From Octopus vulgaris (taxonomy: Eukaryota): 64,000 bases of DNA. Below the pieces are notes generated by a model. It saw only the letters and a list, made by a program, of their open reading frames with translations, was not told where the DNA came from and ran no database searches. Below, one piece after another: positions 6,684-13,695 of this stretch; the first letter of the stretch is position 1, and each line of letters opens with the position of its first letter. The DNA lies in NCBI GenBank assembly GCA_951406725.2, contig OX597819.1:76942001-77006000 (forward strand), in the 5' to 3' direction. Position numbers and translations under genes: made by a program.

Positions 6684-7282
6684 GCCTTTATCTTCTATCT
6701 AACCTTCCTATAGATTGTTCCTGCCATTATTTACTGATTTTCTTCCAGTCACTCTAATTACTGATGGTAATCATCCTATCATCTTAGTGGGATCAACTTT
6801 ATAAATTCACTCTGGTTTACTGTTGACAAGTTGTAGCCATTCCAGCTTTGTTTGTTTTGATGTTTGGTATACTGGACAAAATGCTTAGCTGTATTCCATC
6901 CACTTTCCATGTTCTGAGTTCAAATTCTGCTGAAGTCAGTGTTGCCTTTTATCTTTTTAGGGTCAATGAAATAAGTACCAATTGAGCCCCTTTCTTCAAA
7001 ATTTCAGGCCTTGTGCTAATAGTAGAAAGAATCATTATTATATAGTGTACTATTAGTACTTAAGCTAAAGTGTTTTTTGTAACTCAGTTGAATTCTTTCT
7101 ATATCTTGAGTCTGATCAAAAACTTCTTTTTTTCCCCCTTCAGTTTATGTACAACCTCATATGTGTAATAAGCACCAGGATCTTCTTACACATCCTTTTC
7201 ACAATCTATTATAGAAAGTATCTCAGATAAATATATAGAGCTATTTTTATCTTAAACAAATTTACCCTGTGATTTGTTGCAG
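6684..7282 (+). repeat. Copy A of an old local duplication (paralogue 12965-13823), interrupted by a SINE B fragment at about 6870-7035
   Basis: Collinear shared blocks: tatctaac.ttcctat, agtgtacta, tgaattctttct.tatctt, and the identical 20-mer cttcagtttatgtacaacct (7138-7157 and 13618-13637). Confidence 0.75.
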
Positions 7283-8592: not shown

Positions 8593-9404
8593 TATCCTAG
8601 CTGTCTACAAATAATTGATCATTTTGTCCACTTGTTTCGCTTCATTGTTATTAAATCCCCTCATTAATACAACATTATGCATGCAAATAAAACAAATGAT
8701 ACTTGGCATTCTGTTTTTGTGTGTTTAGCAAAGTTAGGTTTGTTTTCTTTATTGCCTTTTGTTCCTGCCCAGCAACCTTTGTTTCCATTCCAAATTCTTT
8801 TTGGCCCTCACTCTGATTTTCATGTGCAGTCTACCTTATTTGTAGGGTAAACCACTTGTAATTATCCTGTAACTTGTCATACATGTTCAATGCTGTTTAC
8901 TGTATTGTAAGTGTTTGTTAGAGTTATCTGCTTGTAGACAGGACTCTGCAAATGGAATCTCATTGTGCCTGATTCATAAATGGGTTGTTTTGGGGCAACA
9001 GATGTCAATTAATTCTAAATCTCCTCCATTTAATTTTTTAATTGGTCCATTTAATTTTTTTTTTTTTAATGATTTCATTTTTTATTTTTATACTTGAAAT
9101 ATTGTTCTGCGAAATAAGAAGCCCTTTTGTTGAGCTTTTGATAGATGAAAGGGTAATAGAGGTTTCTAGACAGCCAACAGCTATCAATAATTACTACAAT
9201 TATGATTTTTGATAAATACAACAATTACTCTAATTCGTGTTAAAAAGGTCTAATATTACATCTTAACAGACATTTTATCATTTGTTCTACATTCAGTCTT
9301 CTATTACTGCAGCACTTCTCAAAATTTTTAAACTATTACCCTCTTTCTTTTACGAACACTTTCTCTGCTCCCTAGCTATGATTCAACACAACTGAATAAA
9401 GCAC

Positions 9405-9410
<6 letters not shown>

Positions 9411-9447
<37 letters not shown>
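9411..9447. repeat. (TA)n microsatellite, left target flank of the Penelope-like element
   Basis: Pure (at)n run abutting the element's 3' end. Confidence 0.95.
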
Positions 9448-9449
<2 letters not shown>

Positions 9450-9599
9450 GTGAAATAGAAAGATGAATAATCTTGTAGTAGATTAATCAAAAGTTTAACC
9501 GATACCTTAGTAGCAAAAATCACAGCAGTAAAACAGCACGGTTGGAGGTACAACCATATGGTGTTGCAACCGTGCGTTGGTGCGGATAATTGAAATTAG

Positions 9600-9671
9600 A
9601 ACATTATTGGTGAATTGAAGAAATGGAGCTGAACGCAGATTGAACAGAAATCGTTTTATTTCATTCTACAC
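9600..9671 (+). repeat. 72-bp perfect inverted repeat, arm 1 (inside the 3' pLTR)
   Basis: aacattattggtgaattgaag...tcattctacac is the exact reverse complement of 12350-12421. Confidence 0.97.
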
Positions 9672-9750
9672 GTGTTTCGAAAGGCACAAATTACCAAAAT
9701 CCGATGGAATAATGGGACCATATTGTGTCTTTCTCTTCAGGAAGAAAATA
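9657..9750 (-). ncRNA. Type I hammerhead ribozyme (PLE-associated, palindromic stem III)
   Basis: Minus strand: UAUUUUCUUC-CUGAAGA-GAAAGACACAA-(33 nt)-UUGUGCCUUUC-GAA-ACACGUGU-A^GAAUGAAAUA. The core CUGANGA/GAAA/GUA is intact. Stem I pairs 9 of 10 (one G-U) and stem II 10 of 11. Cleavage is predicted between 9667 and 9666. Confidence 0.88.
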
Positions 9751-10337
9751 GGAAATCCGTTGGAAAAACAAAAACAGAACAGAGGCGGAGCAAAAACAAA
9801 TCGAACTATGCTCCTAAGAGCCCATGGCGAAACTGTTTATCAGTGTATGTTGAGAACCGGTGGCTGAAGAATTCAACGGGTCAGGCATCGGTCAATCATG
9901 TGGGTGAGGGGGCGTAGATGTTCTTTGTGACCGAGAATAAAGTTCTGACTATTTAAGGAATATTGGATGTTTTATAAGGGGCGAGAAAAAATCTACTTAG
10001 AGACGTGTGTGTGTGTATACTGTTCTATATACGTGTGTGTTGGCGTAGGGGTAGAAAACATTTTTTGTGTACGTGTGTGCGTTTGATCGTTCGGCTGTCA
10101 GTGGCTACTGCCGTGATGACCGTTGGGTGGCAGAAAAAAAATATATATATCATGTTTTATGTGTGTGTGTGTTCTCATCTAAGCCTGCCTTGTCAAGGAA
10201 ACCCCCCGCTGTGAAAAAACCAAGCCCCGTTTGTCTTACAGGAGTAATTCCCCTTGCAGTGGTTAATCGTAGATATCTTAAAGGCTATTTCAGAATTTGT
10301 TACCAAGGGCTATGGGTGCCGGTATTATTTATAAACG

Positions 10338-12381
10338 CTATTTAAAAGCCAGATAAGTGTAACGCCGCCAATGGGGGCATCGAAAAGCCGACTGTAAAAG
10401 CCCGTTTACCATCCGGCCTCTGGCAAACAAAATATGGAAGAGTTCGGAGACACAAAGGTTGCACTGCCTTCTGCCCCCTATCAAATGGGAGGGCCACCGA
10501 CAAAATTGACCATTCCAGCCTGTAGCTTAGGTTCGTATCCTTCAGTCGCCATATTAGCTTACTGAGTCCCGTGGTCTGGCGCTTGTTCATGTCCCGAAAA
10601 GTTGCGTAATGGTTGGAGACACGCAAAGACAATCTTGAGGATGAGGCCCCTACATAAGTGAAGACATCTGAGTCCGTGTAAACCTTGCATTGGTAGACGG
10701 CGTTTTTGATCTTGGAGTTCGCCGACGTGAATCTAATTCTGCTAGGATTAGTTTCTGAAATTAGAACTGCGTTCCTGTCACTATATTCGTTCCGAGACCT
10801 GCAGCCGCTTACTACTCTATTTTCCACTACGTCACTATTAACTATAGGAATAACCCCTGATTCTCCACTATCTATCAAAGTGCTGTCATTGCTACTGCCC
10901 GTGGTGCTGCTATTGCGGGAAATGATGCTGGGGATGCTATTGGGGCTCTCTACCCTACTCCCATTGTTACCGTCAACCACAACACCCCTATTTATAACTA
11001 TACCCCTAGTGGGTACTCCCTGGCTGGAGCTGAGATTATGTGTCACTGTACTGGCTCTCATATCATTATTACTACTATAATTATTCCTACTGAGCATTAA
11101 ACCGGGAGCGGAAGAGGCTGTGCCTCCGGAAAAAGGTGATAGGGTCTTAGTAAGTAGCCTATTATTATGGGAGGCGATTATCTGGGCGAGGTTTTTAGTG
11201 TTGGAGAAAGCTATCCTAACTTTATGCGAGTTAACCGTGGAGTAATATTTGGAATTTCTGGGGAAGTTATTGGCAATGGCTTGTCTAAACATGAGGGGGA
11301 GGTTAGTTCTAATCTGCTTACCAAAGGGGATTACAAACCATATATGCTTATTCCTATCAGTGTGATGGATCGGGACGCCAGCTCTCGCATTCGGGTGGGT
11401 GATTCTCGGATGAATGACGGGTCTTGGGTTAGTGTAAGACCTCCCGGACCGATAATTATCCTTGTTCGCTAAATTAAATGCGGGAGCGACTACCCCGGCA
11501 TCCACCGCGCTCCCGTCCTTACTTAAAATGTTAATGTTATTATATACGGCCCTATCCTGATGACCGAATGATGGCATCGGAAGGGCCGGATCAATATAAA
11601 TTACCTTCTGCCTATAACCGGCCTTGGATAGTGCGGCGTTATAAAATTCCGCTTTCTGCATAAAAATATCGGCACTGGCGGACAAGCCAGACAATCTTAG
11701 AGAGATGTTTTTAACCAAATTGTCTGTTACGGTTTTGGCATGATTTGAGAAGACACTGACATACTTCAAATTAGTGGAAGGCTTATGGTAAGGGCAGTAT
11801 GAGTCGCTATTAAGGTTAAGTGTAACGTCTAGGAAATTGGCCTTGGTGAGTTCATTATCAAAAACTATACTCATGCCCATTCTATTAAAAAACCTAGCTA
11901 ACCTGCTCTTAGTTTTCTGCACTATTCTGTTCGTGGTGTTTTGCAGGTAAAACAGACAATCGTCACGATACAGGCCGCCCGCGATCTCCGGGAATTGGTC
12001 GGACAATTCGTAGAGAATATATATTCCGACCAAATCGGCTATCTGCGCACTATCCGAACTACCCATAGGCACATCAAATTCATTGGGAGTATCTTTACGG
12101 ATCCACAACTTATTATCAAACTTAATAAACGATTTCCTGGCAACTAAAATGATATCTATCTCTTCTCTGGTGAGGCCAGCCTTGTTGTGAGCATGCCAGA
12201 GGGCCTTATTTAGCACACTAGGGTTAATCGAGGGGTAGAAGCTGGCGATATCAAACTGAATGAACCTAGTACGGTTCTTATTGGGGATGGAAGAGAACCA
12301 CTTCACTACCTGCGAGGAGTTGGCCCAGAGGCTGAACTTCAGCTTGTTTGTGTAGAATGAAATAAAACGATTTCTGTTCAA
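10338..12381 (-). CDS. Penelope-like reverse transcriptase + GIY-YIG endonuclease polyprotein (5'-truncated, with a +1 frameshift near the C-terminus)
   Basis: ORF 10342..12381: QFDIASFYPSI, FDVPMGSSDSAQIADLVG, GLYRDD, NFLDVTL, PYHKP..YV...SNH, then AVY-x12-YVG..R..H (GIY-YIG). The first 11 aa come from the inverted repeat. The likely true C-terminus (RQCNLCVSELFHIL..VN..RCPHWRR, stop at 10338) is in another frame. Confidence 0.9.
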
Positions 12382-12419
12382 TCTGCGTTCAGCTCCATTT
12401 CTTCAATTCACCAATAATG

Positions 12420-12421
<2 letters not shown>
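12350..12421 (-). repeat. 72-bp perfect inverted repeat, arm 2 (inverted pLTR fragment capping the 5'-truncated PLE)
   Basis: Exact reverse complement of 9600-9671; followed by (TA)n up to 12466. Confidence 0.97.
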
Positions 12422-12467
<46 letters not shown>

Positions 12468-13299: not shown

Positions 13300-13623
13300 T
13301 TAAAATTGATCATGATTATTCAGTCTTTGTGGTAGGATCAAATTCCAAAATGTATCCGATATTTTCTTTGGTATAAGGTGTAAACATCATAATTTTGTTT
13401 GTGATTTGTGGCTTCACTGGTTTTATAAAGATATACATACTTGCCATGAAAACCTTTGTGAGTAGATTCCAGTTCTGTGTTTTTTTTGTTTTTTGTTCTA
13501 TATACAGTGTACTAATATCACCTACTCTTAAGTGTTTTCTTAACTGTGCTGAATTCTTTCTCTATCTTAAGATTGATTGCAAAATTCATTTTTTTTCTTT
13601 CTATTTTTCTATCCTTTCTTCAG

Positions 13624-13695
13624 TTTATGTACAACCTTATCTGTTTAATAAAGTATCACAAGAATTCACTTCCATCTCTTCCACAATATATTGCA
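13624..13695 (+). other. Candidate 72-nt cassette exon
   Basis: Long polypyrimidine tract ending ttcttcag| and consensus donor GCA|gtaagt. The length is divisible by 3 and two frames are open (FMYNLICLIKYHKNSLPSLPQYIA or YVQPYLFNKVSQEFTSISSTIYC). Confidence 0.35.

What the first reader, a model, noticed from the sequence alone, without database searches (positions are those of the whole stretch)
12340..12466. The inverted 5' pLTR fragment begins essentially at the ribozyme cleavage site
Seen: on the + strand, 12350-12421 is a tiny sense copy of the pLTR. Its 3' end abuts the right (TA)n. Its 5' end (GTGTA^GAATG) lies only 5 nt upstream of the predicted cut, at the exact centre of the stem III palindrome, and is fused head-to-head to the truncated RT body. 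Inference: a second reverse transcription event, primed from the opposite strand of the symmetric (TA)n target, ran off a ribozyme-cleaved RNA end and was joined by microhomology. This would tie hammerhead cleavage mechanistically to the inverted-LTR structure of PLE insertions.
Basis: partly seen in the sequence, partly recalled or inferred. Interest (0 to 1): 0.75.

Follow-up and report, generated by a model that had tools for sequence, protein, structure and literature searches.

The report
Penelope inverted arm misses ribozyme cut
This is an ordinary broken-off, mirror-image end of a recently spreading Penelope-type jumping gene; across the genome such ends are scattered and pile up most strongly not at the predicted ribozyme cut but at one upstream base with an extra G, likely the capped start of the RNA, so ribozyme cutting likely explains at most about 1% of them and not this one.

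Summary
The sequence facts hold: 12350-12421 is an exact 72-nt inverted copy of the pLTR of a Hydra-like Penelope element, starting 5 nt upstream of the predicted hammerhead cut. The inference fails for this copy. It retains 5 bases that cleavage would remove, and the join is blunt: intact copies read TTTAGT, not TACAC, before AAACAAGCTG (16 of 16 records). In 100 of 251 comparable arms, 5' breakpoints run from +23 to -3237. A scan of positions -15..+14 gave 83 junction ends: 1 at -4, 2 at +1, 11 at 0/+1 together (5.5 expected, P=0.02 uncorrected). The sharp hotspot is 167 nt upstream of the cut, at an Inr/DPE-like site, where 42 of 58 copies carry an extra G, likely a copied cap. Two priming events are supported: the inverted arm is the longer one in 37 of 87 junctions, and both arms share variants. 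A small class made from cleaved RNA, including an 18S rRNA chimera joined at the cut, is not excluded. The scan noted cap-G stubs and a coincidental cut-site match before, in other genomes.

The parts
12350..12421 (+). Inverted 5'-truncated pLTR arm, positions -4 to +67. Holds only the 3' half of stem III, the scissile site (12354/12355) and the stem I 3' strand; no catalytic core
12349..12350 (.). Blunt head-to-head junction (0 nt overlap, no insertion) between the RT body (position -2680) and the inverted arm (-4)
12422..12466 (.). Right (TA)n target tract
10342..12349 (-). 5'-truncated ORF: RT core and thumb, S/N-rich linker, C-terminal GIY-YIG-type endonuclease region; one extra base near 10478 shifts the frame at the C-terminus. 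An intact tandem copy encodes 895 aa
   Evidence: motif names recalled; Pfam gave no RT hit; Atlas neighbours at score 0.95-0.98, two of the five listed with RVT_1 in 16-20% of members
9803..9834 (-). Predicted transcription start (A at 9834, position -167, in CAGTT, Inr-like) with AGTTC at +28..+32 from it (DPE-like; consensus recalled). Sharp hotspot of 5' ends, usually preceded by an extra G
9655..9752 (-). Type I hammerhead motif: CUGAAGA 9740-9734, long stem II 9733-9679, GAAA 9678-9675, palindromic stem III 9675-9668, predicted cut 9667/9666
9449..9599 (-). 151-nt 'tail' (+68 to +218) present on the body arm only; holds a predicted hairpin at 9537-9575, just 3' of which body arms often stop
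9404..9448 (.). Left (TA)n target tract

Best explanation
The 72-nt piece is an ordinary 5'-truncated second arm of a Penelope-like insertion, likely made by a second reverse transcription primed on the other strand of the (TA)n target, on RNA that was likely uncut at this hammerhead, and joined bluntly to the body. Model: the element is likely transcribed as a capped sense RNA from position -167; the protein would nick both strands of (TA)n and start copying at +218 (body, with tail) and at +67 (inverted arm); each cDNA would run 5'-ward until it falls off, most sharply at the cap (extra G), more often than average at folded RNA or short palindromes, otherwise at random; the two cDNA ends would then be joined head-to-head. 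Shown: arm geometry, fixed ends, breakpoint distribution, extra G, blunt junction here, shared variants between arms. Inferred: capping, the order of events, stalling at structure, use of one RNA molecule.
For: Arm starts span +23 to -3237 in 100 arms; 2 of 99 other arms start at 0/+1. Scan of -15..+14: -4 has 1 of 83 ends, +1 has 2. The arm contains -4..0, which lies on the other cleavage product. No microhomology here. Peak at -167/-166: 15 of 30 scripted hits over 37 positions (P 7e-12) and 39 of 99 read by eye. G precedes -167 in 42 of 58 copies against 20 of 93 arms elsewhere. The inverted arm is over 30 nt longer than the body in 37 of 87 junctions, 34 of them with the body reaching its tail end, so neither arm can be a copy of the other. 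Arms share 128 variants in 60 loci, 14 seen in no other locus. In vitro a Poseidon protein nicks and extends both strands, starts at two RNA sites that define the tail, and does not need hammerhead cleavage (PMC11167929, parts 1-2 of 4 read).
Against: There is an excess at 0/+1 (11 of 83 ends, P=0.02), and 10 head-to-head loci start exactly at +1, 7 of them with the partner arm at -1..+3. The whole -15..+14 stretch has about twice the density of -16..-43 (52 of 77 by eye, P=0.004; scripted 18 v 4), so -4 is not in a neutral region. In this copy the arm is a subset of the body, so fold-back copying cannot be excluded. No raw RNA reads confirm the start site or the cap. The 58 copies were read from the listing and not all fetched, so some may be point changes.
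Confidence: 0.7

Rival explanations
1. Fold-back: the body cDNA ended at -2680, jumped onto itself at -4 and copied its own start, so this arm needed no second RNA-templated event. Arkhipova 2013 read palindromic junctions as self-priming, on an antisense template.
For: 32 of 87 junctions have both arms starting within 30 nt of each other (7.3 expected, 0 of 20,000 permutations). Perfect palindromes sit on stem III (6 of 47 loci), on TTTTATAAAA-type words and on TTTCGAAA. Both arms of L166 carry the same rRNA chimera. Arms share variants.
Against: This junction is far from symmetric (-4 v -2680) and has no microhomology. In 37 of 87 junctions the inverted arm is the longer one. Cap-like G occurs on inverted arms whose partner lacks that region (L073), which points to a sense capped template. 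The fixed +67 end would need a separate cut.
Confidence: 0.17
2. One reading: this arm ran off a ribozyme-cleaved RNA end and was joined by microhomology, and cleavage makes the inverted structure.
For: The start is 5 nt from the cut. Twofold excess at 0/+1. 10 loci start exactly at +1; 8 of 47 near-symmetric loci have an arm exactly at +1 (read by eye). An 18S rRNA fragment is fused at 0/+1/+2 in L166.
Against: The five bases -4..0 cannot come from the 3' cleavage product and are not supplied by the body. 97 of 99 other arms start elsewhere. Stem III palindromic junctions keep -8..0, so they derive from uncut RNA. Hammerhead mutants did not affect insertion in vitro and no reads began or ended at the cut (PMC11167929). 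Naiads lack hammerheads yet form inverted arms (PMC8557442 passages).
Confidence: 0.05
3. The inverted arm was longer at insertion and was trimmed later by a deletion inside the inverted repeat.
For: Internal deletions at short repeats exist in this family: 15 of 98 rows were indels or internal deletions.
Against: The copy is young (99.2% identical to intact units) and the junction has no microhomology to seed a deletion.
Confidence: 0.05

Closest known systems
Hydra clade of C-terminal EN+ Penelope-like elements (Craig et al. 2021, PMC8557442; section 11 read whole, other passages by search)
   Same: Single ORF with C-terminal endonuclease, DKT motif, no CCHH, CxxC and CxH near the end, canonical hammerhead, (TA)n targets, tandem and inverted arrangement.
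   Different: Unit is 3,624 nt against generally under 3 kb; RWK reads RWL; no CxCX5C linker was seen; the tail is 151 nt against 30-40. No tree was built.
Poseidon PAc of Anolis carolinensis (Frangieh et al. 2024, PMC11167929; parts 1-2 of 4 read)
   Same: Two fixed 3' ends that define a tail; AT-rich target; hammerhead in the pLTR; both strands extended.
   Different: There the two start sites lie inside the ORF; here both lie upstream of the first Met. In the parts read the paper gives no census of 5' junctions and no cap signature.
Adineta vaga EN+ Penelopes (Arkhipova et al. 2013, PMC3846280; passages)
   Same: Inverted pLTR next to the 5' end, tail on one arm, Inr-like site in the pLTR, palindromes at inverted junctions, one microhomology join, N-rich ORF inserts.
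   Different: They proposed self-priming on an antisense template; the extra G at one sense-strand start here points to a capped sense template.
[quoted passage not shown]
   Same: Type I motif with a short palindromic helix III, predicted to work as a dimer; motifs on opposite strands 100-700 bp apart were already noted.
   Different: Stem II here is much longer (about 55 nt in all). No link to breakpoints in the part read.

Membership tests
EN+ Penelope-like element | Single ORF with RT then GIY-YIG endonuclease | tested here: inconclusive
   895-aa ORF with RT-like motifs (DIASFYP, PMGS, YRDD, FLDV) and VYQ-x-YVG read by eye, names recalled; Pfam and PDB gave no relevant hit; Atlas neighbours are eukaryotic, RVT_1 on 16-20% of members in two clusters.
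EN+ Penelope-like element | Tandem or partial-tandem units forming pLTRs | tested here: met
   Head-to-tail 3,624-nt units at G000:C1:119.51-119.53 Mb.
EN+ Penelope-like element | Inverted 5'-truncated copy next to the 5' end, tail on one arm | tested here: met
   87 of 100 arms ending at +67 have an antisense partner; 71 partners align to the tail end and 9 more end within 16 nt of it.
EN+ Penelope-like element | Hammerhead motif in the pLTR | tested here: met
   Core and stems present; weak Rfam Hammerhead_1 match. Activity untested.
Hydra clade | DKG changed to DKT | tested here: met
   QSDKTRN in the ORF.
Hydra clade | RWK motif | tested here: inconclusive
   IRWL at the expected place.
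Hydra clade | CCHH absent; CxxC and CxH near the C-terminus | tested here: met
   QCNLC and CPH present; no cysteine pair inside the GIY-YIG core (by eye).
Hydra clade | CxCX5C linker before the endonuclease | tested here: not met
   Only one cysteine (SGCRSR) in that stretch. Hence filed as Hydra-like, not as a member.
Hydra clade | Insertion into (TA)n | tested here: met
   Both ends here; 251 exact +67-TATATA ends in the genome.
Hydra clade | Placement in the RT phylogeny | not tested
   No reference Hydra sequences were fetched; the paper's supplements were not opened.
Product of a ribozyme-cleaved template | 5' end at the first base after the scissile bond, allowing for microhomology or added bases | tested here: not met
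   The arm includes five templated bases upstream of the cut, with no microhomology.

The most novel reading that the evidence does not exclude
A Penelope complex copies one capped sense RNA twice, from two fixed sites and from opposite strands of (TA)n, and about 1% of arms come from RNA that the hammerhead had cut in vivo: both arms then stop at +1, and once the cut end was joined to 18S rRNA. That would be genomic evidence that a PLE hammerhead cleaves in the cell while being dispensable for the inverted structure, and would favour a sense over an antisense template.
Probability: 0.35. Interest if true: 0.65.

Novelty: new member of a known kind. Interest (0 to 1): 0.38.

Why it matters
How PLEs build tandem and inverted ends, and what their hammerheads do, are stated as open in PMC8557442 and PMC11167929. 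This family is young and numerous enough (at least 1,563 exact copies of the cut region) to be read as a record of insertion events. It argues that cleavage does not make the inverted arm, names a single-base transcription start that can be tested by 5' RACE, and sets an upper bound of about 1% on arms made from cleaved RNA. The locus itself is ordinary.

Tried and rejected
Rfam at gathering threshold found nothing in the window; unconstrained folding of 9650-9755 was no better than shuffles (z 0.09). Pfam and PDB sequences gave no useful hit. One search was a mis-designed negation and returned a plain count (1,188); it was not used as a control. One search showed a false peak at +7, caused by an older-subfamily variant at +6; one search corrected it and also moved 4 rows to the indel class. 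Sequencing runs: no RNA holder listed, only assembled contigs; laying four of them gave no joints and cannot show starts, ends or strand, so a guessed intron in the tail and the start site remain untested. A peak at -4 was considered and rejected: of 20 genome-wide hits 8 were single-base changes, 4 indels or internal rearrangements, 2 joined to TA-type repeats and 6 head-to-head, one of which is a stem III palindrome with a point change. Literature searches for a published census of PLE 5' junctions or a cap G in PLEs found none; the library lacks most subscription papers, and no supplements were opened.

Full report
Numbering. +1 is the first base after the predicted hammerhead cut (window 9666, minus strand); position p is window 9667-p.

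Observation. The window holds a Penelope-like insertion between two (TA)n tracts. The body runs on the minus strand from 12349 to 9449. The piece 12350-12421 is an inverted copy of positions -4 to +67, 100% identical over 72 nt to intact copies. The hammerhead has a CUGAAGA core, a stable long stem II and an 8-bp palindromic stem III that can self-dimerise at -12.3 kcal/mol; Rfam scores it weakly (14.8 bits, E 0.69). Its activity is untested.

The family. The best 40 scored matches to the pLTR were 100% identical over 352 nt, and a 34-mer across the cut occurs 1,563 times. Intact head-to-tail units are 3,624 nt with an 895-aa ORF. Motifs fit the Hydra clade of PMC8557442 (DKT, no CCHH, CxxC/CxH, TA targets) except for the CxCX5C linker, so I call it Hydra-like. 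Pfam does not recognise the protein.

Test 1, microhomology. The full-length sequence before AAACAAGCTG is CCCTAGTTTAGT in 16 of 16 unrearranged records; the only two records with TACAC are this copy. The junction overlap is 0. The prediction fails. The arm also holds five templated bases upstream of the scissile bond, which a 3' cleavage product would not carry.

Test 2, breakpoints of inverted arms. 251 sites in the genome end at +67 against TATATA; I fetched the first 100 listed (contigs C1-C7, in coordinate order, not a random draw). 87 have a head-to-head partner; 13 have none that the script found. Arm starts run from +23 to -3237. Leaving out this copy, 2 of 99 start at 0/+1 and 4 within 6 nt of the cut. 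A pattern catching any arm that breaks off between -15 and +14 gave 327 hits; the first 100 were fetched and scripted, giving 98 distinct rows, of which 15 indels or internal deletions were dropped. Among 83 junction ends: 1 at -4, 2 at +1, 9 at 0, 11 at -15, mean 2.8. The pair 0/+1 has 11 ends from 10 loci against 5.5 expected (P=0.02, uncorrected; symmetric loci count twice; detection depends on flank composition). Direct genome-wide counts: 17 hits start at +1, of which 4 are point changes, 1 a deletion, 1 a sense junction and 11 are arms of 10 head-to-head loci; 20 hits start at -4 with 6 head-to-head and 2 TA junctions; 4 hits start at +5 with 2 junctions. By my arithmetic the excess at 0/+1 scales to roughly 20 arms, about 1% of copies.

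The real hotspot. Both arms stop repeatedly at -167: 7 of 100 inverted arms and 9 of 87 bodies lie in -169..-165. A scan of -189..-153 gave 194 hits; of the first 100, read by eye with 1 indel dropped, 24 end at -167 and 15 at -166; the 30 scripted ones gave 9 and 6 (P 7e-12). The site reads C-A(+1)-GTT with AGTTC at +28..+32 from it, matching Inr and DPE consensus as I recall them. Of 58 copies that start at -167 with a base other than the genomic C, 42 have G, 12 A, 4 T (counted from the listing), against G before 20 of 93 arms elsewhere. An extra G from reverse transcription of the cap is recalled knowledge; I saw only the title of Hirzmann 1993 in the reference list of PMC3530677.

Other structure in the distribution. 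The 3' half of the hammerhead (-15..+14) has about twice the density of -16..-43: 52 v 25 ends by eye in the first 100 of 474 hits (17 indels and 6 unresolved set aside; P=0.004; the script called one of the 52 an indel), 18 v 4 in the 30 scripted. Body arms cluster at +124..+145 (10 of 22, P=0.0003, window chosen after seeing the data), just 3' of a predicted hairpin at +92..+130. Both suggest stalling at folded RNA. Near-symmetric junctions are common: 32 of 87 have both starts within 30 nt (7.3 expected), 21 of 68 without the -167 region. Among 47 near-symmetric loci around the cut (read by eye), 6 are palindromes centred on stem III and 8 on TTTTATAAAA-type words; these use the palindrome as microhomology and the stem III ones keep -8..0, so their template was uncut. 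Eight of the 47 have an arm exactly at +1, mostly without a palindrome. Microhomology of 2 nt or more occurs in 34 of 60 insertion-free junctions (16% by chance); 27 of 87 have inserted bases.

One or two priming events. The inverted arm is more than 30 nt longer than the body in 37 of 87 junctions, shorter in 18; in 34 of the 37 the body carries the tail that the inverted arm lacks. Neither arm can then be a copy of the other, so two primings (+218 and +67) are needed. The arms of a locus share variants: 128 shared against 59 in one arm only across 60 loci, 14 of the shared ones seen nowhere else in the sample. This points to one source RNA or locus; later gene conversion is not excluded. It agrees with the in vitro work on PAc, which nicks and extends both strands, starts at two sites and is unaffected by hammerhead mutation (PMC11167929).

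Evidence for a minor cleaved class. Besides the twofold excess, 7 of the 10 loci that start at +1 have the partner arm at -1..+3, as if both cDNAs met one RNA end. At L166 about 270 nt of sense 18S rRNA is fused to the pLTR with a 2-nt AG overlap, so at 0, +1 or +2, in both arms. It is one case, found inside a window chosen around the cut.

What is known. The inverted truncated copy and the one-sided tail are described as typical (PMC8557442 passages, PMC3846280 passages); Naiads have them without hammerheads. Opposite-strand hammerhead pairs and the dimer model are in PMC4209133 (part 1). My searches found no census of PLE 5' junctions and no cap G in PLEs. Earlier notes of this scan reached a cap-G reading (e1-9960851) and a coincidence reading (e1-9838122) in other genomes; I had noted the -167 start before opening them and did not check their data.

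Verdict. A real, ordinary inverted arm; the proposed link to cleavage is refuted for this copy and limited to about 1% of arms in the family. The useful by-products are a testable transcription start, support for two primings on a sense capped RNA, and a small candidate class of cleaved templates. Interest 0.38.

Noticed in passing
L166:1535-2090 (G000:C1:121058524-121059145): Near-perfect palindromic insertion in which about 270 nt of sense 18S rRNA is fused to the pLTR at position 0/+1/+2 in both arms; a retroposed rRNA-PLE chimera.
   Followed up: partly
L270; G000:C20:23.96-24.08 Mb: Tandem array with a period near 18.4 kb holding an 18S rRNA gene with long GC-rich insertions (Rfam match over 2,200 nt): an rDNA array.
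   Followed up: partly
window 9449 and tandem junction in L011/L012: The element sequence just past the tail end (TAATACATA) resembles the TA target; 41 tail ends read TAATATA, 16 TTATATA and 14 TATATAT. Possible primer-template pairing at the +218 start.
   Followed up: partly
window 9815-9826, minus strand: An ATG in a good context 10 nt after the predicted start opens a three-codon frame (ATG GGC TCT TAG); the main ORF starts about 430 nt later. An AAG|GT splice-donor-like site lies in the tail. No splice joint was seen in contigs.
   Followed up: partly
L011:reverse strand, upstream of the tandem array: A different PLE fragment (Neptune-like endonuclease end, label recalled) with about 1 kb inverted arms sits directly beside the array.
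   Followed up: no
L123, L164, L183, L226, L232, L233 and others: Recurrent small deletions inside the hammerhead, including the same 2-nt loss in the stem III palindrome in five rows.
   Followed up: no
window near 10478: One extra G shifts the reading frame in the endonuclease C-terminus of this copy.
   Followed up: yes
window 7039-7171 and 13501-13651: Two diverged direct repeats (77-91% identical pieces) about 6.46 kb apart flank the region.
   Followed up: no
genome-wide: At least two older subfamilies with diagnostic changes (at +6, +31, -161/-162) share the same -167 start and inverted geometry.
   Followed up: partly
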